From the NCBI GenBank assembly GCA_014360985.1, contig JACIWK010000003.1:1061-65060 (forward strand): a stretch of 64,000 bases of DNA. Reading direction: 5' to 3'. The position numbers were made by a program, and so were the translations under genes. Positions within the stretch are counted from its first letter, which is position 1. The number at the start of each line of letters is the position of its first letter. Shown here piece after piece: positions 2,049-55,101 of the stretch. This DNA is from Candidatus Bipolaricaulota bacterium. GTDB taxonomy: Bacteria > Bipolaricaulota > Bipolaricaulia > Bipolaricaulales > Bipolaricaulaceae. The notes beneath the pieces are model-generated. The model was given only the letters and a program-made list of their open reading frames with translations. It had not been told where the DNA came from and did no database searches.

Positions 2049-3316
2049 GCGTGACCGTTCACACGCTGGGGTGCCGGGTCAACCAGTACGAGTCTCAGCT
2101 CCTCGCGGAGAAGCTGCAGGCGGTGTCGGACCAAGCCCTGGTCCACGTGGTGAACACCTGCACCGTGACCGCCCTCGCCGACCGCAAGTCGCGTCAGCTC
2201 GTGTCTCGCCTTCGGCGTGAGCACCCGACGGCGCTCATCGTGGCCGTGGGGTGCGGGGTTCGGGGGGGTGAAGAGAGGTTGCGGGCGGCGGGGGCGGATC
2301 TCCTCGTGGAGAACAGGGACAAGATGCGCCTCGTCGAGGTGATCGAACTCTTCCTCCAGGGGAGGACGGGGGAGGGGAACGGGGGGTGGGCAACCCTCGA
2401 TGAGGAGCGCCTCTCCGGGGCCGAACCCCGCGTGCGGGCCGTGCTCAAGGTTCAGGACGGGTGTACCGTCGGGTGCACGTTCTGCCGAACATGGCAGGTG
2501 CGGGGGCCGCTGCGGAGCAAGACTCCCCAGGCGGCGCGGGCCGAAGCAGAATCCCTCGCGCGGGCCGGCCACCGCGAGATCGTCCTCGCGGGGGTCAACC
2601 TCGCTCAGTACGGGGAGGACCTCCCTTCGCGGCCGAGTCTCATCGACCTCCTCGAGGCCCTGCTTGAAGTAGGGGGGGTTCGATATCGTCTCTCCTCCCT
2701 CAGCCCGGATGGGCTCACCGACGGGCTCATCGCTCTGTTCGCTTGGGAGCGGCGCCTCTGCCCCTACCTCCACCTCCCCCTCCAGTCGGGGGACGATGCG
2801 ATCCTGGAGAGGATGGGACGGCCCTACACCGTGGCCGAGTGCCTCGATCGGGCACGCGCGTTCCGCTCTGCGGTCCCCGGAGCGACCCTCGGCGCGGACG
2901 TGATGGTGGGGTTTCCGGGGGAAGACGAAGCGGCGTTCGCGCGCACCGTGGACGCGCTCGCCGCCCTCGATCCCCTCAACGTCCACGTGTTCCGATTCTC
3001 CCCCCGGCCTGGTACGGCCGCGGCGCGGATGACACCGCGCGTCCCTCCACGGGAGGCCGCCCGGCGCGCGGCTCGGCTCGCGGCTCTCGCCGACGGCTGG
3101 TCGGAAGCTGCCCAGGAACGGTTCCTGGGGGCCGAGGTCGGGGTGGCGGTGGAGGAGAAGCAGGGCCACTTGGCATGGGGACGGAGCGAGAACTACCTCT
3201 GGGTGGAGGTGCGGGGACGGGGGGCCACACGGGGTACAATCGTCCCAGCCCGCCTCGTGGAACGCGCGGATGGGCGTCTCGTGGGGGTGATGGTGGATCG
3301 CACGGAGAACGGCTGA
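2045..3316 (+). CDS. mtaB: tRNA methylthiotransferase MtaB (radical SAM, MiaB-like)
   Basis: [12 protein letters not shown]-terminus, VNTCTVT, QDGCxxxCxxC radical SAM motif, [17 protein letters not shown]. Confidence 0.85.
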
Positions 3317-3338
3317 GATCGAGCTGGGGAGCCACGAC

Positions 3339-37252: not shown

Positions 37253-37845
37253 GCGACTACTTCGTGCACGAATCCGCGTACGTGGACCCCGGGGCCAAAG
37301 TCGGCCCAGGGACGAAGATCTGGCACTTCAGCCACGTGATGGGCGGGGCCGAGATCGGGGCGAACTGCAGCCTGGGCCAGAACGTGTTCGTGGCCGATCG
37401 GGTGAAGATCGGGAACCATGTCAAGATCCAGAACAACGTGTCCGTGTACGAGGGCGTGGTCCTGGAGGACTACGTGTTCTGTGGTCCGAGCTGTGTGTTC
37501 ACCAACGTGCGCACACCCCGGTCCGCGTTCCCCCGCAACCGCCCCGAGGACTACGTACCGACGGTGGTCAAGCACGGGGCGTCGATCGGGGCCAATGCCA
37601 CGGTTGTCTGCGGGGTGACGATCGGCGAGTGGGCGTTCGTTGCCGCTGGCGCGGTGGTGACGAAGGACGTGCCGCCCTACGCCCTCGTGGCCGGCGTCCC
37701 CGCCCGCATAATTGGCTGGGCCTGTGAGTGCGGCGTGCCATTACGATTCGAAGGCGGCGGTGACCAGGAGGCGACGTGCGCCGAGTGCGGACGGGTGTAT
37801 CGGCTGAAAGGGGAGGGCATGGAGTTGGTGCGGGAGAGCTCGTAG
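37249..37845 (+). CDS. wbpD: UDP-2-acetamido-3-amino-sugar N-acetyltransferase
   Basis: [60 protein letters not shown]. Confidence 0.9.
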
Positions 37846-37870
37846 CATGTGGCTTGTAGCCAGTGGAGCA
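37843..37870 (+). repeat. G-rich heptamer arm (4 units) starting at the wbpD stop codon
   Basis: TAGCATG TGGCTTG TAGCCAG TGGAGCA. Confidence 0.8.
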
Positions 37871-37884
37871 GACCAGGAGTGTGC

Positions 37885-38397
37885 ATGCCGGAGTGCGTGG
37901 AGAACCTTGAGGTCTGGCAGCGTGGCGTCAGGCTCGTGAAGGCCGTATACGAGATCACCCGTCACTGGCCATCGGAAGAGCAGTATGGTCTGACCTCCCA
38001 GTTCCGCCGCGCGGCTGTCTCCGTACCGACCAACATCGCTGAGGGGGTCGGTCGAGGGGGACGCCGCGAGATCGTGCGGTTCGCCCGGGTTTCGCTCGGC
38101 TCACTGTACGAGCTGAGCACGTTGTTGGTCATCGCTGAGGGACTGGGGTGTGTCAGCGAAGGGTCGGCGGCGAAGATGCGTGCCGAGATCGATGCCCTCA
38201 CCCGGCAGCTGGCGGCCTTCATCCGTTACCAGCAGGGTCGCCTGCCCGGCCGGCCTCCAGGTTCCACCCACGCTCCACCCCCGGATGGAGACGCCGCCGG
38301 CCCCCCCTACAAACCACAAGCTTTGATCCACTCGCCACAAGCCACACGCCACAAGCCAAGAACCGCAAGGAGAACAGATGACCATTCCCATCCTTGA
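37885..38397 (+). CDS. Four helix bundle protein (23S rRNA IVS protein / Avd-like fold) with repeat-encoded C-terminal tail
   Basis: LEVWQ....L...VY..T..WP.EE.YGLTSQ.RRAAVS.PTNIAEG..R......RF...SLGS.YE; low-complexity tail runs through the heptamer arm. Confidence 0.9.
   Translation: MPECVENLEVWQRGVRLVKAVYEITRHWPSEEQYGLTSQFRRAAVSVPTNIAEGVGRGGRREIVRFARVSLGSLYELSTLLVIAEGLGCVSEGSAAKMRAEIDALTRQLAAFIRYQQGRLPGRPPGSTHAPPPDGDAAGPPYKPQALIHSPQATRHKPRTARRTDDHSHP
38307..38369 (+). repeat. C-rich heptamer arm (9 units), complementary to the 37843 arm
   Basis: CTACAAA CCACAAG CTTTGAT CCACTCG CCACAAG CCACACG CCACAAG CCAAGAA CCGCAAG. Confidence 0.88.
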
Positions 38398-39742
38398 CCT
38401 CAAACGCCAGTACGCGTCCATCAAGCCCCAGATCGATGCTGCCATCCAGCGGGTGGTGGAGTCGGGGCGGTTCATCCTCGGCCCCGAGGTCGAGGCGTTG
38501 GAGCAGGAGATCGCCGCCTACTGCGGCGTCAAGCACGCGATCGGGGTGGCGAGCGGTACCGACGCGTTGCTCCTCTCGCTGCGGGCGCTTGGGATCGGGC
38601 CGGGGGATGGGGTGATCGTCCCCAGCTTCACCTTCTTCGCCACCGCCGGCGCGGTCCACAACGTGGGGGCAACCCCCGTCTTCTGCGACATCGACCCCCG
38701 CACCTTCAACCTTGATCCCGACTCGGTTCGAGAGATCATGGCCCGTGGCCCGTGGCTCGTAGCCAGTGGGACCCCACAGGGCATTCCTCCCACATGCTAC
38801 AAGCCACAGGCAACTAGCCACATCACATGCCACTCGCCACACGCCACTCGCCCCAGGCCGCGCGCCATCATCCCCGTCCACCTCTACGGCCAGATGGCGG
38901 ACATGGACGCAATCATGGAGCTCGCCCACGAGTTCGGCCTCTATGTGATCGAAGACGCCGCCCAGTCCATCGGCGCCGAGTACGTTGGGCAAGTAGCTAG
39001 TAGCCAGTGGCCTGTAGATGAAGGCTCCCCACCCCCCACAAGCCACCTCCCGCTCTCCACAGGCCACAGGCCCCAGGCCCCAGGCCACAAGCTAGGAGCA
39101 ACTAGCCACAAGCCACAAACCAAGAAAGCCGGCACCGTCGGCCATCTCGGCTGTTTCTCCTTCTTCCCCACCAAGAACCTCGGGGCGTACGGGGACGGGG
39201 GGATGGTCGTGACGAACGACGACGAGCTCGCCGAGCGGGTGCGGATGCTGCGCGTGCACGGGTCCAAGCCCAAGTACTACCACCACATCGTGGGGTACAA
39301 CTCCCGGCTCGATGCCCTCCAGGCCGCGATCCTGAGGGCGAAGCTCCCCCATCTGGACGAGTGGACAGCGGCGCGGAGGAGACTCGCCGCCCGGTACGAC
39401 GAGCTCCTGGCTGGGGTGCCGGGGATCGAGCTCCCCCACCGGGCGGCGGGGCAGACCCACATCTTCCACCAGTACACGATCCGAGTGTTGGACGGCAAGC
39501 GCGACGCGTTGCGCGAGCACCTCAAGGCGCAGGGAATCGGGACCGAGATCTACTACCCATTGCCATTGCACCTCCAGGAGTGCTTTGCCCATCTCGGGTA
39601 CCAAGAAGGGGACCTCCCCGAGAGCGAGAAGGCAAGCCGCGAGGCGTTGTCCTTGCCCATGTTTCCCGAACTCACCGATGAGGAGCAGGCTTGCGTCGCC
39701 AACTCCATCCGCTCCTTCTTGGGCTCAAGCTGCCAACCATGA
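38378..39742 (+). CDS. DegT/DnrJ/EryC1/StrS aminotransferase (WbpE-like) with two in-frame repeat insertions
   Basis: SGTDAL, IEDAAQSIGA, FSFFPTKNLG.YGDGG, GYNSRLDALQAA; 454 aa, two low-complexity loops. Confidence 0.92.
   Translation: MTIPILDLKRQYASIKPQIDAAIQRVVESGRFILGPEVEALEQEIAAYCGVKHAIGVASGTDALLLSLRALGIGPGDGVIVPSFTFFATAGAVHNVGATPVFCDIDPRTFNLDPDSVREIMARGPWLVASGTPQGIPPTCYKPQATSHITCHSPHATRPRPRAIIPVHLYGQMADMDAIMELAHEFGLYVIEDAAQSIGAEYVGQVASSQWPVDEGSPPPTSHLPLSTGHRPQAPGHKLGATSHKPQTKKAGTVGHLGCFSFFPTKNLGAYGDGGMVVTNDDELAERVRMLRVHGSKPKYYHHIVGYNSRLDALQAAILRAKLPHLDEWTAARRRLAARYDELLAGVPGIELPHRAAGQTHIFHQYTIRVLDGKRDALREHLKAQGIGTEIYYPLPLHLQECFAHLGYQEGDLPESEKASREALSLPMFPELTDEEQACVANSIRSFLGSSCQP
38739..38857 (+). 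repeat. In-frame inverted heptamer insert 1 in the aminotransferase
   Basis: TGGCCCG TGGCCCG TGGCTCG TAGCCAG TGG followed by CCACAGG..CCACATG CTACAAG CCACAGG CAACTAG..CCACTCG CCACACG CCACTCG CCCCAGG. Confidence 0.88.
38986..39126 (+). repeat. In-frame inverted heptamer insert 2 in the aminotransferase
   Basis: TAGCTAG TAGCCAG TGGCCTG, then 13 consecutive in-phase C-rich heptamers at 39036-39126. Confidence 0.9.
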
Positions 39743-39764
39743 CGAGTGGACTCCCGACCCCGGC

Positions 39765-39834
39765 CCACGGACGCTGGACCATGGACCATGCACTTCGTCC
39801 CACACGCCACTCGCCACAGGCCACGTACAGCATG
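39765..39834 (+). repeat. C-rich heptamer array (10 units) ending at the TAGAAT -10 box of the MNT-HEPN pair
   Basis: CCACGGA CGCTGGA CCATGGA CCATGCA CTTCGTC CCACACG CCACTCG CCACAGG CCACGTA CAGCATG. Confidence 0.85.
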
Positions 39835-39871
39835 TAGAATCGAAGCAACACTCCGGAGGGGGTGATCGTTC

Positions 39872-40216
39872 TTGGCCTCACGAACCGTTCCTGCGGATGT
39901 GCTGGATGACATCGTCCGGCGGATCGTAGCGGTGGCTGATCCAGACAAGATCATCCTCTTCGGCTCCGCAGCCCGGGGGGAGATGCGCCTGAGCAGCGAC
40001 TTGGACCTCCTCGTCGTCAAGTCCGGCGTCCCTCATCGCGGACGGCTGACGGAGGAGATCTACATGGGCCTCTCGGGCGTCGGGAGAGCTGCCGACATCA
40101 TCGTCGTTACCCCCGAGGACATAGAACGATATCGCGATGTGCATGCAACCGTGATCAAGCCCGCCATCCGCGAGGGGAGGGTGATCTATGAGCGCGAAGC
40201 AGCGACCACCGGATGA
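39872..40216 (+). CDS. Minimal nucleotidyltransferase (MNT) antitoxin
   Basis: IILFGSAARGE....SDLDLLVV motif, 114 aa. Confidence 0.9.
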   Translation: MASRTVPADVLDDIVRRIVAVADPDKIILFGSAARGEMRLSSDLDLLVVKSGVPHRGRLTEEIYMGLSGVGRAADIIVVTPEDIERYRDVHATVIKPAIREGRVIYEREAATTG

Positions 40217-40586
40217 CCCCATCGAGTGGTTGAACAGGGCGCGGAGCAACCTCCTGCAGAGCCAGGCGCGACTCGAAGGGGTGTACCTGGAGGACCTGGC
40301 TTTCGCGGCTCAACAAGCGGCAGAGAAGGCGATCAAGGCCGTCCTCATCCATCTTGGCGTGGAGTTCCCGTACACCCATGACCTGACAGCACTGCTCACG
40401 CTCGTGCAGCAGCAAGGGTTCTCTGTGCCGAGGGAGGTAGCCCAAGCAGGCCGGCTCACTCGGCATGCAGTGATCGCCCGCTACCCGGGACTCGGGGAAC
40501 CTGTGACCGAAGAGGAGTACGCGGAGGCAGTGACGATTGCGGAGGGTGTTGTGCAGTGGGCGCAGTCCATTGTGGCCGGCCAATGA
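40188..40586 (+). CDS. HEPN domain toxin
   Basis: WLNRA..NL, F.AQQAAEKAIKA, FPYTHDL..L, RYPG; overlaps the MNT gene. Confidence 0.9.
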   Translation: MSAKQRPPDDPIEWLNRARSNLLQSQARLEGVYLEDLAFAAQQAAEKAIKAVLIHLGVEFPYTHDLTALLTLVQQQGFSVPREVAQAGRLTRHAVIARYPGLGEPVTEEEYAEAVTIAEGVVQWAQSIVAGQ

Positions 40587-40608
40587 GCGCCTCACCGTGG
40601 CACCCAGA

Positions 40609-40747
40609 CCACTCGCCATGGACCATGGACCCCTCGCACCACGCACTACGGACCATGGACCATGCACTTCGTCCCACACGCCACTCCCCACAAGCCGACC
40701 CCGCACCACGCACTATGGACCATGGACCATGGACCATGCACTCCGAC
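40609..40747 (+). repeat. C-rich heptamer array (about 19 units, small phase slips) ending at the wecB start
   Basis: CCATGGA, CCACGCA, CCACACG and CCACAAG units; 40650-40686 is identical to 39776-39812. Confidence 0.88.
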
Positions 40748-40749
40748 CC

Positions 40750-41961
40750 ATGCGCCTAGCCAACGTCGTCGGTGCCCGTCCTCAGTTCATCAAGCTCGCT
40801 CCGGTCCTGAAGGCCATCGACCAGCACAACCGGGAGCACCCCGAGGCCCAGGTTGAGGAGATCTTGATCCACACGGGGCAGCACTACGACTACGAGATGT
40901 CCCAGGTGTTCTTCGACGAGCTGGGGTTGAAGGCACCTGACCACCATTTGGGCGTTAGGTCAGGGTCCCATGGCCAGCAGACCGGGGAGATGCTCAAGCG
41001 GATCGAAGAGGTGCTTCTCAAGGAGAAGCCCGATCTGGTGGCGGTCTACGGCGACACGAACACCACCCTGGCCGGGGCCCTGGCAGCGGCCAAGCTGCAT
41101 GTCCCGGTGGCCCACGTGGAGGCGGGCTTACGCAGCTTCAACCGGAAGATGCCCGAGGAGATCAACCGCGTGCTCACCGACCATGTGGCGGATCTCCTCT
41201 TCTGCCCCACCGAGACCGCAGTACAGAACCTGAAAAGGGAGGGTTTCACCAACATCGTCAACGATGGCCATCTCCTCCCGCTTGACTATGCACCACGGAC
41301 TCCAGGCGACAAGCCACGCACTACACGCCACAAGCCACTAGCCATCAATGTTGGCGACGTGATGTACGATGCGGTGCTCCAGTACGCCGAGCTTGCCGAA
41401 GCGAAGTCAGGGATCCTCGAGCGCTTAAAGCTTGAGCTCAGAGGCTACGCCCTGGCCACCGTCCACCGCGCGGAGAACACCGACGATCCAGTGCGTCTCA
41501 GGGCGATCTTCCAGGGGCTGGTGAAGCTTGCCCGGGAGGGGCTGACGGTGGTGGTTCCCTTGCACCCCCGCACCCGTAATGCCCTCTCTTCTCTCTCCCT
41601 TACCCCTGACCCTTCGCCCTGCAATCTGCTCATAATCGAGCCGGTCTCTTACCTGGACATGCTCGTGCTCGAGAAGAACGCCCGGGTTATTCTGACGGAT
41701 TCCGGCGGGGTGCAAAAGGAGGCCTTCTTCTTCCGCGTCCCCTGCGTGACCCTCCGGGAGGAGACCGAGTGGGTGGAGACGGTGGAGGCGGGTTGGAATG
41801 TGCTCGTGGGCGGTGACCCGGAACGGATTCTCCAGGCGGCCCTAATGGCTCAGCAAGGAGAGGAGACCACTTGGCCCTACGGTAACGGCCGGGCGGCGGA
41901 GAGGATTGCCGGCTTTCTGGAACGCGGATTATGCTGGGGATGGCGCCATGAACGAGCCTAG
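40750..41961 (+). CDS. wecB: UDP-N-acetyl-hexosamine(uronate) 2-epimerase, non-hydrolysing (WecB/WbpI-like)
   Basis: VVGARPQFIK, HTGQHYD, VYGDTNTTLAG, HVEAGLRSFN..MPEEINR, TDSGGVQKEA, ETEW. Confidence 0.93.
   Translation: MRLANVVGARPQFIKLAPVLKAIDQHNREHPEAQVEEILIHTGQHYDYEMSQVFFDELGLKAPDHHLGVRSGSHGQQTGEMLKRIEEVLLKEKPDLVAVYGDTNTTLAGALAAAKLHVPVAHVEAGLRSFNRKMPEEINRVLTDHVADLLFCPTETAVQNLKREGFTNIVNDGHLLPLDYAPRTPGDKPRTTRHKPLAINVGDVMYDAVLQYAELAEAKSGILERLKLELRGYALATVHRAENTDDPVRLRAIFQGLVKLAREGLTVVVPLHPRTRNALSSLSLTPDPSPCNLLIIEPVSYLDMLVLEKNARVILTDSGGVQKEAFFFRVPCVTLREETEWVETVEAGWNVLVGGDPERILQAALMAQQGEETTWPYGNGRAAERIAGFLERGLCWGWRHERA
41286..41348 (+). repeat. In-frame C-rich heptamer run (9 units) inside wecB
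   Basis: CTATGCA CCACGGA CTCCAGG CGACAAG CCACGCA CTACACG CCACAAG CCACTAG CCATCAA. Confidence 0.8.
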
Positions 41962-54936: not shown

Positions 54937-55062
54937 ATGCCCCTGGAGGAGCGAGAGGTGCTGGGCCGCCGCGGGCGGGAGTACGTGGAGGAGCACCACG
55001 ACATCCGGAAGCTGGTGGAGAGGTTGGAGCGCGTTCTGATGGACGTGGTCCATGGTCCGTAG
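54937..55062 (+). pseudogene. 3' remnant of a GT4 glycosyltransferase
   Basis: MPLEEREVLGRRGREYVEEHHDIRKLVERLERVL resembles GT4 C-terminal helices; stop codon supplied by a heptamer TAG. Confidence 0.6.
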
Positions 55063-55101
55063 TGCGTGGTCCGGAGGGAAGGGCTTGTGGCGTGTGGGGA
55101 A
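55046..55101 (+). repeat. G-rich heptamer arm (8 units)
   Basis: TGGTCCA TGGTCCG TAGTGCG TGGTCCG GAGGGAA GGGCTTG TGGCGTG TGGGGAA; first 25 bp are the exact reverse complement of 40638-40662. Confidence 0.85.

What the first reader, a model, noticed from the sequence alone, without database searches (positions are those of the whole stretch)
39765..40749. MNT-HEPN toxin-antitoxin cassette bounded by an exact 37-bp direct repeat made of heptamers
Seen: GGACCATGGACCATGCACTTCGTCCCACACGCCACTC occurs at 39776-39812 and 40650-40686, each inside a longer C-rich heptamer array. The cassette has its own TAGAAT -10 box immediately after the last left heptamer. Inference: the arrays act as integration and excision sites for small self-contained cassettes in the polysaccharide operon, integron-like but with no integrase seen. 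Recombination between the repeats would remove the TA pair cleanly.
Basis: partly seen in the sequence, partly recalled or inferred. Interest (0 to 1): 0.7.

Follow-up and report, generated by a model that had tools for sequence, protein, structure and literature searches.

The report
Toxin-antitoxin cassette slot between heptamer arrays
A small toxin-antitoxin-type gene pair sits between two sugar-pathway genes of an uncultured Bipolaricaulota bacterium, flanked by 7-base repeat tracts, and related genomes hold zero to five such mini-gene cassettes at this spot with break points inside the tracts, so the tracts work as cassette swap sites with no integron machinery in sight.

Summary
An exact 37-bp direct repeat (39776-39812, 40650-40686) lies in two C-rich degenerate heptamer arrays. 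These flank an MNT/HEPN pair with its own TAGAAT promoter, between a WbpE-like aminotransferase gene and wecB.

The wbpE-wecB junction carries:
- nothing at all in an out-group;
- a bare 179-bp array in one genus;
- one, two, three, four or at least five promoter-bearing cassettes in others (MNT/HEPN of two allelic types, MntA/HepT, HicBA, ParE-type, four-helix-bundle IVP). These occur in different orders and are always separated by arrays.

The window's cassette is 91-99% identical in DNA to that of a species whose flanking wbpE is only about 72% identical. A metagenome contig carries two cassettes (A+B). The window's right array is a hybrid of that contig's middle and right arrays. Another species' left array is the reciprocal hybrid. 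Cassette gain or loss therefore happened by crossover inside arrays.

There is no integron integrase and no attC-like fold. The most likely mechanism is general recombination between arrays; a dedicated enzyme (a RAYT is a lead) is not excluded. This is a new variant of known kinds, of moderately high interest.

The parts
38378..39742 (+). WbpE-like DegT aminotransferase gene, the conserved left flank of the cassette slot; it carries two in-frame heptamer hairpin inserts (38739-38881, 38988-39125)
   Evidence: PF01041 E=1.7e-123. The C-terminal 203 aa are 93% identical to G011 and 78-79% to G003 and G012. The inserts are absent in out-group G028.
39743..39835 (+). Left heptamer array: GGACCAT-type units, a transition core, then CCACNNG-type units
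   Evidence: C 42%, G 25%. No significant ssDNA fold, z = +1.6.
39776..39812 (+). 37-bp direct repeat, copy 1 (spans the transition core CACTTCGTCCCAC)
   Evidence: Exact match, 0 expected by chance. The core occurs only twice in the genome.
39811..39840 (+). Cassette promoter-like site: -35-like TCGCCA inside the last heptamers, an 18-nt spacer, and -10 TAGAAT (39835-39840)
   Evidence: The TAnAAT(G/C)G box recurs before every cassette in G003, G010, G011, G012, L041 and L133.
39855..39859 (+). Shine-Dalgarno GGAGG, 12 nt before the TTG start of the MNT gene
   Evidence: Read from the sequence. Conserved in G003, G011 and L133.
39872..40216 (+). MNT (minimal nucleotidyltransferase) gene, the putative antitoxin; GSX10DXD motif at residues 31-45
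   Evidence: PF18765 E=2.8e-10, PF01909 E=1.4e-8. Motif found. Below the MntA equivalog cut-off, 30.7 against 60 bits.
40188..40586 (+). HEPN-domain gene, the putative toxin; overlaps the MNT gene by 29 nt
   Evidence: PF05168 E=3.2e-27. Only RLTRH (Rx3H) is present, with no canonical Rx4-6H. 95% aa identity to G003 and 55% to G011.
40587..40749 (+). Right heptamer array, ending at the wecB ATG; a hybrid of two arrays seen in the two-cassette relative L133
   Evidence: C 46%, G 20%. It folds only through CCATGG self-complementarity.
40650..40686 (+). 37-bp direct repeat, copy 2
40750..41961 (+). UDP-GlcNAc 2-epimerase (wecB/wbpI-like) gene, the right flank; has an in-frame heptamer insert at about 41286-41348
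   Evidence: PF02350 E=7.9e-109. 86% aa identity to G011.
37843..38377 (+). Related cassette one junction upstream: four-helix-bundle (23S rRNA IVP) gene (37849-38397) between a G-rich heptamer arm (37843-37872) and a C-rich array (about 38300-38365)
   Evidence: PF05635 E=3.7e-32. TIGR02436. Same arrangement in G003, G017, L041, L042 and L133.
55046..55090 (-). Inverted copy of the mixed GGACCAT/GCACTAC/CCACAAG array at the far end of the variable glycosyltransferase block
   Evidence: Equivalent far arrays are G012:C10:74222-74275 and G010:C42:11517-12790.

Best explanation
The wbpE-wecB junction of this Bipolaricaulota polysaccharide operon is a cassette slot. Small self-contained modules, each with its own -10 promoter, Shine-Dalgarno site, one or two genes and a short cassette-specific tail, are stacked head to tail and separated by polar, degenerate heptamer arrays. 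The arrays read (GACTCNN)/(GGACYAY)n, then a transition core of the type GGACT..CTTCCCACAAGCCAC, then (CCACNNG)n.

The arrays give tens of bases of near-identity on both sides of every cassette. Recombination between two arrays therefore deletes, duplicates, replaces or re-orders cassettes. This is most probably general homologous recombination or slipped or template-switch recombination, acting within a chromosome or with incoming DNA.

The window holds one cassette, an MNT/HEPN pair of type A. Its exact 37-bp repeat is the transition core of the two outer arrays. It is the substrate on which the next deletion would occur, leaving a 133-bp empty array.

Shown here: the repeat, the arrays, the gene identities, cassette-number and order polymorphism, discordant identity between cassette and flanks, and hybrid arrays at the junctions.

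Inferred: the enzyme (RecA-type rather than a dedicated recombinase), the direction of each event (loss or gain), promoter activity, and that the pair is a working toxin-antitoxin system.
For: (1) Cassette content at one orthologous junction differs between genomes:
- none and no arrays in out-group G028;
- array only in G016;
- type A in the window;
- type B in G011;
- A+B in L133;
- A + MntA/HepT + IVP in G003;
- HicBA + A + MntA/HepT + ParE pair in G012;
- ...MntA/HepT + HicBA + B + small antitoxin + IVP in G010;
- MNT/DUF86 + MNT/HEPN + HicB-like in the low-GC relative L041.
Pfam confirms the families.

(2) Identity is discordant. For window against G011, wbpE is 93%, wecB 86%, MNT 64% and HEPN 55%. 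For window against G003, wbpE is 78%, MNT 92% and HEPN 95%. In DNA, 40040-40600 is 91-99% identical to G003, while the wbpE 3' end is about 72% identical. The G003-like stretch ends at about 40632, inside the right array.

(3) Arrays are hybrids. The first ~95 nt of the window's right array match L133's middle array, and the rest matches the 3' part of L133's right array. G011's left array equals the 5' part of L133's left array plus the 3' part of its middle array, with the B-type promoter.

(4) The repeat pair is orthologous. In L133 it flanks the whole two-cassette stack at 37/39 identity.

(5) Cassette-specific tails travel with their cassettes while the arrays between them vary. One example is the non-heptamer stretch of ~150 nt after hicA, which looks conserved between G012 and G010; this was read by eye, not aligned.

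(6) No dedicated machinery is visible. There is one tyrosine recombinase in the assembly, on another contig. The arrays have no attC-like fold and match no Rfam family.
Against: - No same-species empty allele was found, and reads could not be examined, so ongoing excision is not shown.
- The left break point of the G003-like patch lies in the conserved 5' third of the MNT gene, not in the array. Cassette homology also serves as a crossover site, so the arrays are not the only one.
- G017 retains a decayed TA pair at the site without flanking arrays. Arrays are therefore not needed to hold a cassette there.
- The conserved polarity and core of the arrays across species is more order than simple slippage predicts. 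It hints at a function or an enzyme that general recombination does not explain.
- The same arrays also sit in frame inside wbpE and wecB, where no cassette is involved.
Confidence: 0.65

Rival explanations
1. A dedicated recombinase uses the arrays as attachment sites. This would be a true integron analogue. The best candidate is a REP-associated tyrosine transposase (RAYT, Y1 HUH enzyme) acting on single-stranded DNA at the GTRG-type heptamers.
For: - The arrays have a conserved polar grammar and a conserved core (YTCCCACARGCCAC) across species.
- In this genome GGACCAC (= GTGGTCC) heptamers directly abut the GTAG of the abundant REP element GTAGGGGCGGACCTCGTGTCCGCCC, in 2 to 7 copies.
- The assembly has 4 Y1_Tnp genes. 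One is at C23:61996-62319, about 6 kb from the far array. G012 also has one within about 8 kb of the locus, and G011 has a partial hit about 13 kb from wecB.
Against: - No REP hairpin or GTAG-tagged palindrome lies in the arrays that flank the TA pair.
- G017 has arrays but no Y1_Tnp hit. G016 also has none, but is only 58% complete.
- Heptamer flavour differs between genomes (GACTCNN in G012 and G016, GAACYAC in L041), which fits drift better than a fixed recognition site.
- The mixed GGACCAT/GGACTAC arrays are confined to the polysaccharide locus, whereas REPs are genome-wide.
- One break point lies inside a gene.
Confidence: 0.12
2. The arrays are primarily functional RNA- or transcription-level elements, and recombination at them is a by-product. 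For example, they could be C-rich, G-poor, unstructured Rho-loading (rut-like) insulators that stop read-through between selfish cassettes and operon genes, or promoter-upstream elements.
For: - The arrays are 42-46% C and 20-25% G against about 32/35% in the window.
- They are C-rich on the coding strand at every junction read. The exceptions are the G-rich left arms of the IVP cassette and of the in-frame hairpin inserts.
- The left array is unstructured.
- Rho is encoded.
- Each array ends at a -10 box, and the -35-like hexamer lies in the last units.
- Heptamer arrays just upstream of genes are described in Beggiatoaceae, Cyanobacteria and Bacteroidetes, with a proposed regulatory role (PMC4679880).
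Against: - The right array runs straight into the wecB ATG with no promoter after it. Termination there would silence an operon gene.
- The same arrays occur in frame inside wbpE and wecB.
- The unit sequence is not conserved between genera.
- No expression data could be obtained.
Confidence: 0.15
3. The TA pair is an old, fixed insertion, and the heptamer arrays are plain microsatellite-like slippage products. The 37-bp identity would come from gene conversion or chance and would have no bearing on cassette movement.
For: - The cassette site is shared by several genera, so the insertion is old.
- Arrays also occur without any cassette: in frame in wbpE and wecB, in hydrogenase and Mrp operons, and next to REPs.
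- Unit number and flavour change quickly between species.
Against: - Cassette number (0 to at least 5) and order differ between species of one genus.
- Cassette DNA is 91-99% identical where flanks are about 72% identical.
- Reciprocal hybrid arrays are present.
- A 73%-identical homologue of the HEPN gene, with its MNT partner, lies in a quite different TA island in G054.
Confidence: 0.05
4. The direct repeat is an assembly artefact, a short-read mis-join or duplication at a repeat.
Against: - The region lies inside a 115-kb contig.
- The complete single-contig genome G011, the 64-kb contig L133, and G003, G010 and G012 all show the same layout.
- L133 has the orthologous repeat pair.
Confidence: 0.02

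Closest known systems
Chromosomal integron cassette arrays (e.g. the Vibrio superintegron) and CALINs (own knowledge)
   Same: Co-oriented stack of small cassettes separated by a repeated junction element. Many cassettes are toxin-antitoxin pairs that carry their own promoters. Cassette content and order differ between close relatives.
   Different: There is no IntI and no attI. The junction elements are tandem degenerate heptamers, not imperfect palindromes with R/L boxes. They do not fold like attC. They also occur in frame inside genes. Break points can lie inside cassette genes.
Intergenic heptanucleotide tandem repeats: cyanobacterial STRR (Mazel et al. 1990, own knowledge) and TAACTGA repeats of Beggiatoaceae, Cyanobacteria and Bacteroidetes (PMC4679880)
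   Same: A 7-nt unit in degenerate tandem arrays just upstream of genes. Copy number varies between strains. Roles in regulation and in genome rearrangement have been suggested.
   Different: Here the mixed arrays are confined to one polysaccharide locus rather than spread over hundreds of loci. They have a polar composite grammar, delimit promoter-bearing cassettes, and are translated in frame in three protein loops.
REP/BIME elements and their RAYT transposases (PMC3733652, PMC2817692, PMC8266576)
   Same: The genome carries GTAG-tagged REP palindromes (28-30 copies within one mismatch of each 12-13-nt seed) and four Y1_Tnp genes. GGACCAC heptamers form the variable 5' flank of one REP family.
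   Different: The arrays that flank the TA pair contain no REP hairpin. Heptamer tracts as a variable part of REP clusters did not turn up in my literature searches.
Minimal mobile elements and other replacement hot spots between conserved genes in naturally transformable bacteria such as Neisseria (own knowledge)
   Same: Alternative cargo sits between the same two conserved genes. It is exchanged by homologous recombination, and the cargo carries no mobility gene.
   Different: Here crossovers use internal repeat arrays as well as flanks. This allows stacking, partial deletion and re-ordering of several cassettes at one site.
MNT-HEPN toxin-antitoxin modules (COG1708/COG2250 type; HepT/MntA type VII systems) (own knowledge)
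   Same: Two small overlapping genes. The MNT has the GSX10DXD motif and the partner is a HEPN-domain protein.
   Different: The HEPN protein is of the PF05168 type and lacks the Rx4-6H RNase motif, having only RLTRH. The MNT scores below the MntA equivalog cut-off. Toxicity is unproven.

Membership tests
Integron / CALIN cassette array | IntI-type tyrosine recombinase next to the array | tested here: not met
   PF00589 has one hit in the whole assembly, on contig C5 (41899-42444), not on C23.
Integron / CALIN cassette array | attC sites: imperfect palindromes that fold as single-stranded hairpins | tested here: not met
   No inverted repeats in the two arrays. Left array z = +1.6 on both strands. 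The right array folds only through CCATGG self-complementarity.
Integron / CALIN cassette array | Co-oriented cassettes whose number and order vary between relatives | tested here: met
   0, 1, 2, 3, 4 and at least 5 cassettes in G016, window/G011, L133, G003, G012 and G010, in different orders.
MNT-HEPN toxin-antitoxin pair | Adjacent small genes, MNT upstream, overlapping or tightly coupled | tested here: met
   39872-40216 and 40188-40586 overlap by 29 nt.
MNT-HEPN toxin-antitoxin pair | Nucleotidyltransferase motif GSX10DXD in the MNT | tested here: met
   GSAARGEMRLSSDLD at residues 31-45.
MNT-HEPN toxin-antitoxin pair | Rx4-6H RNase motif in the HEPN | tested here: not met
   Only RLTRH (Rx3H) was found. 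The HEPN domain itself matches at E=3.2e-27.
MNT-HEPN toxin-antitoxin pair | Toxicity of the HEPN protein and its neutralisation by the MNT | not testable with these tools
   Needs expression in a laboratory strain.
REP/BIME-RAYT system | High-copy GTAG-tagged palindromes plus a Y1 transposase gene in the genome | tested here: met
   28-30 copies of each REP family within one mismatch of the 12-13-nt seed; 214 and 272 within two mismatches, some of which look spurious. Four PF01797 hits.
REP/BIME-RAYT system | The element in question contains the REP palindrome | tested here: not met
   There is no plausible REPa or REPb copy in or beside the arrays of 37843-41348. The one two-mismatch REPb seed hit, at window 38456, lies in wbpE coding sequence. 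Only the heptamer unit is shared with the REP flank.
STRR-type intergenic heptamer repeats | Tandem 7-nt units in non-coding DNA | tested here: met
   Period-7 arrays.
STRR-type intergenic heptamer repeats | Dispersed at many loci genome-wide | tested here: not met
   CCACNNG and mixed GGACCAT arrays occur only at C23:38.9-42.4 kb and 56.1 kb. There are about 10 short GGACCAC tracts elsewhere. GACTCNN arrays of G012 are confined to C10:74-89 kb.

The most novel reading that the evidence does not exclude
The polar heptamer array, (GGACYAY)n then core YTCCCACARGCCAC then (CCACNNG)n, is the attachment site of an unrecognised, integrase-free cassette capture and shuffling system. It may be driven by a single-strand HUH enzyme (RAYT) or by a host factor. 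It would stock polysaccharide operons with toxin-antitoxin and four-helix-bundle cassettes. Unchecked notes of this scan from other phyla suggest it may be one instance of a widespread 'heptamer-punctuated cassette array'.
Probability: 0.17. Interest if true: 0.85.

Novelty: new variant of a known kind. Interest (0 to 1): 0.62.

Why it matters
Integrons are the textbook way bacteria stack and shuffle small gene cassettes, and they need a dedicated integrase and folded attC sites. Here the same outcome is reached with nothing but short tandem heptamer tracts as junctions: co-oriented, promoter-bearing toxin-antitoxin cassettes whose number and order change between close relatives.

If confirmed, this would show three things:
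- how simple-sequence DNA can create a gene-capture hot spot inside an essential surface-polysaccharide operon;
- why toxin-antitoxin and 'IVP' genes so often litter such operons;
- a tractable case for asking whether heptamer repeats, long known but unexplained in cyanobacteria and sulfur bacteria, serve recombination, regulation or both. The case offers three genomes that look like parent and reciprocal products.

It also warns annotators that these tracts can be translated in frame inside real enzymes.

Tried and rejected
- Exact 37-mer in metagenome contigs: no match.
- HEPN relatives in viral contigs: none.
- The 15-nt array core in viral contigs gave 36 single hits, roughly what I estimate chance would give. 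The one double hit (L202) is an unrelated repeated coding sequence.
- Rfam on 37500-41500: only sub-threshold hairpin look-alikes at the in-gene inserts.
- attC-like folding: rejected.
- Integron integrase: rejected.
- Literature searches for Bipolaricaulota plus heptamer, and for heptanucleotide repeats plus toxin-antitoxin, found nothing relevant. The TAACTGA paper does not mention toxin, HEPN or nucleotidyltransferase.
- Simple vertical inheritance of the cassette was considered and rejected because identity is discordant.
- A CsrA-sponge reading of the GGA-containing heptamers was considered and dropped, because other genomes use GGA-free units (GACTCNN, GAACYAC, CCACAAG).
- Loci of other genomes were not available in the Python box. 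Three stretches were therefore copied by hand from tool output for alignment.
Full report
**Observation**

The 37-mer GGACCATGGACCATGCACTTCGTCCCACACGCCACTC occurs exactly at 39776-39812 and 40650-40686. Allowing three mismatches gives no further copies, and no shuffle gave a match. Similarity extends to 65 nt at 86%. The unusual core CACTTCGTCCCAC occurs only at these two places in the 1.56-Mb assembly.

Both copies lie in period-7 arrays, 39743-39835 and 40587-40749. The arrays are C-rich and G-poor, 42-46% C and 20-25% G, against about 32/35% for the window.

Pfam identifies the genes in order:
- wbpA-, wbpB- and wbpD-like genes;
- a four-helix-bundle '23S rRNA IVP' gene (37849-38397);
- a DegT/WbpE-type aminotransferase (38378-39742);
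- a Pol-beta-type minimal nucleotidyltransferase (39872-40216);
- a HEPN protein (40188-40586);
- UDP-GlcNAc 2-epimerase (40750-41961);
- a GT4 glycosyltransferase.

The only promoter-like site in 3.5 kb has a -35-like TCGCCA in the last heptamers and TAGAAT at 39835-39840. GGAGG at 39855-39859 precedes the TTG start. Deletion between the two repeat copies would leave both flanking genes intact, with 133 bp of array between them.

**Organism and background repeats**

The closest named relatives of the wbpE gene are Candidatus Bipolaricaulota/Bipolaricaulia metagenome-assembled genomes. In this assembly the CCACNNG and mixed GGACCAT/GCACTAC arrays are confined to C23:38.9-42.4 kb (window 37.8-41.35 kb), plus one inverted copy at window 55046-55090.

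About ten short GGACCAC tracts lie elsewhere. Most of them abut REP elements. The genome has two REP families, each with 28-30 copies within one mismatch of its 12-13-nt seed (214 and 272 within two mismatches, some of which look spurious): GTAGGGGCGGACCTCGTGTCCGCCC and GTAGCGTCGGGGCTTGTCCCCGACGG. The first is regularly preceded by ...GCGATCC GTGGTCC|GTAG, with two to seven heptamers. Four Y1_Tnp (RAYT-type) genes are present, and only one tyrosine recombinase, on another contig.

**The same junction in relatives**

| Genome | Relation | Content of the wbpE-wecB junction |
|---|---|---|
| G028 | another family | wbpD-wbpE-wecB contiguous, stop and start overlapping, no arrays, no IVP, no inserts in wbpE |
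| G016 | another genus of the family | 179-bp GACTCNN array and nothing else |
| G017 | another genus | decayed MNT (internal stop) and a HEPN stump, no flanking arrays; arrays around IVP and inside wbpE |
| G011 | same genus, complete genome | array, TAGAAT, MNT/HEPN of a different allele (type B), array |
| L133 (FWPV01001501.1) | 64-kb metagenome contig | array, type A, array, type B, array |
| G003 | same genus | type A, MntA/HepT, second IVP, then a 28-codon wecB stump |
| G012 | same genus | HicBA, type A (frameshifted), MntA/HepT, antitoxin plus ParE-type toxin, wecB stump |
| G010 | same genus | ...MntA/HepT, HicBA, type B, small antitoxin, IVP, wecB stump |
| L041 | low-GC relative | MNT/DUF86, MNT/HEPN, HicB-like, separated by GAACYAC arrays (read by eye) |

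Pfam confirms HepT-like, Polbeta, HicA, ParE and IVP for the G003, G012 and G010 cassettes. Every cassette read is preceded by a TAnAAT box. Cassette-specific tails appear to travel with their cassettes (read by eye for hicA in G012 and G010), while the arrays between them differ.

**Evidence that crossovers lie in the arrays**

Protein identities of the window:

| Gene | to G011 | to G003 | to G012 |
|---|---|---|---|
| wbpE C-terminus | 93% | 78% | 79% |
| wecB | 86% | - | - |
| MNT | 64% | 92% | 91% |
| HEPN | 55% | 95% | 86% |

- In a three-way DNA alignment, the wbpE 3' end is 88-96% identical to G011 and about 72% to G003. By contrast, 40040-40600 is 91-99% identical to G003 and 41-69% to G011. 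wecB returns to 82-86% identity with G011.
- The G003-like stretch ends at about 40632, in the right array. Its left end lies in the conserved 5' third of the MNT gene. The promoter is of the G011/L133 type.
- The first ~95 nt of the window's right array are nearly identical to the start of L133's middle array. The remainder, from GGACCATGCACTTCGTCCC to the wecB ATG, matches the end of L133's right array.
- G011's left array begins like L133's left array and continues like L133's middle array, with the B-type promoter.
- The three genomes thus look like a two-cassette state and its two reciprocal one-cassette derivatives, or the reverse by insertion. In both cases the junctions lie in GGACCAY heptamers.
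- In L133 the orthologue of the 37-mer pair flanks the whole stack at 37/39 identity. The two copies within each genome share a variant that differs between genomes (CACTT in L133, CACTC in the window). This is a hint of conversion between the two arrays, but it rests on one site only.
- A 73%-identical homologue of the HEPN gene, with its MNT partner, lies in an unrelated toxin-antitoxin island in G054, with G-rich heptamers after it. A 97%-identical copy follows three empty array modules behind a different gene in L136.

**Array anatomy**

The arrays are not random microsatellites. Reading 5' to 3' on the coding strand, they run GACTCNN and/or GGACYAY units, then a transition of the form GGACT..CTTCCCACAAGCCAC, then CCACNNG/CTACNNG units, then the next promoter. 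In the window the transition reads GCACTTCGTCCCACACGCCAC. The 37-mer is this transition.

Unit flavour differs by genome, but the positions are orthologous:

| Genome(s) | Unit flavour |
|---|---|
| window, G003, L133 | CCACNNG plus GGACCAT |
| G012, G016 | GACTCNN |
| G017 | ACGGACC/ACGCACC |
| L041 | GAACYAC |
| L042 | GCGAACY |

This applies also to the two loops of WbpE and one loop of WecB, where the tracts are translated in frame. It points to fast concerted turnover.

**Mechanism**

No integron integrase is present, and the arrays do not fold like attC. The left array has z = +1.6. The right array folds only through the palindrome CCATGG. No Rfam family matches.

The simplest mechanism is recombination between arrays and between conserved cassette 5' regions. 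It would act within the chromosome to give deletion or duplication, or with imported DNA to give replacement or addition. A 37-bp perfect match lies above the minimal length generally quoted for RecA-dependent exchange in E. coli (own knowledge). I put this explanation at about 0.65.

A RAYT or other dedicated enzyme remains possible (0.12), because of the REP-flank link and the conserved core. A primary role of the tracts as rut-like insulators or promoter context is a further reading that is not exclusive of the others (0.15); Rho is encoded.

**The gene pair**

The MNT has the GSX10DXD motif. The HEPN protein is a clear PF05168 member but lacks Rx4-6H, having only RLTRH. The MNT scores below NCBI's MntA cut-off. 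Calling the pair a 'toxin-antitoxin' is therefore a family-level prediction.

**What could not be done**

The 37-mer is absent from the metagenome contig collection. Loci of other genomes could not be loaded into the Python box, so alignments used sequence copied from tool output.

**Comparison and verdict**

The site works like a chromosomal integron array, with co-oriented, promoter-bearing TA cassettes, junction repeats and shuffling. It fails the two defining tests, integrase and attC. It shares the 7-nt tandem unit with STRR/TAACTGA repeats, but not their genome-wide spread. It shares its unit with a REP flank, but contains no REP.

I file it as a new variant of known kinds: a heptamer-array-mediated cassette slot. 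Earlier unchecked notes of this scan report similar heptamer-punctuated TA stacks in other phyla. These are leads, not evidence.

Noticed in passing
38739-38881, 38988-39125 and about 41286-41348: Heptamer tracts are translated in frame inside WbpE (two loops, each a G-rich arm plus a C-rich arm) and inside WecB. The same three positions carry tracts of genome-specific unit type in G003, G011, G012, G016, G017, L041, L042 and L133. Out-group G028 has none.
   Followed up: partly
37843-38377: The four-helix-bundle IVP gene sits between a G-rich arm that starts at the wbpD stop and a C-rich array that ends at the wbpE Shine-Dalgarno site. This inverted-arm packaging is conserved in every family member read (G003, G017, L041, L042, L133). 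It recalls the stem that brackets IVS elements in 23S rRNA.
   Followed up: partly
genome contigs C8:3.2-8 kb, C34:0.1-0.6 kb and 113.4-113.9 kb, C10:15579: There are dense clusters of two GTAG-tagged REP families. A variable number (2-7) of GTGGTCC-type heptamers sits directly 5' of the GTAG of REPa. I did not find heptamer tracts as a variable module of REP clusters in the literature searched.
   Followed up: partly
55046-55090 (minus-sense array); G012:C10:74222-74275; G010:C42:11517-12790: An inverted copy of the mixed array lies about 14 kb downstream, at the far end of the variable glycosyltransferase/flippase block, in three genomes. The arrays may also delimit the swappable part of the polysaccharide cluster.
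   Followed up: no
L037 about 3610-3527, L038 about 4076-4020, L040 about 3283-3330: In G003, G012 and G010 only the first ~28 codons of wecB remain, followed directly by a flippase-like gene. This suggests a second recombination seam at the wecB start. In G003 and G010 the stump is preceded by a different repeat (CTCCCCAGCGCCC-type).
   Followed up: no
40537-40749: wecB has no Shine-Dalgarno site before its ATG at 40750. Its frame stays open upstream through the whole right array to a TTG inside the HEPN gene. The GGACCAT units supply in-frame ATGs.
   Followed up: no
genome C2:55634-55701 and C2:61028-61060: Short GGACCAC-type arrays sit at gene boundaries, or at N-termini, inside hydrogenase-like and Mrp-antiporter-like operons, away from any cassette.
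   Followed up: no
genome contigs C21, C22, C25, C26, C28, C32: Six small contigs have 38-41% GC against about 68% for the rest. They are likely binning contamination.
   Followed up: no
genome C3:17066-17104: Another ACGGACC array ends directly at GGGGCGTAGAATGCC, upstream of an amidohydrolase-like gene. This is the same pairing of array and -10 box as in the cassettes.
   Followed up: no
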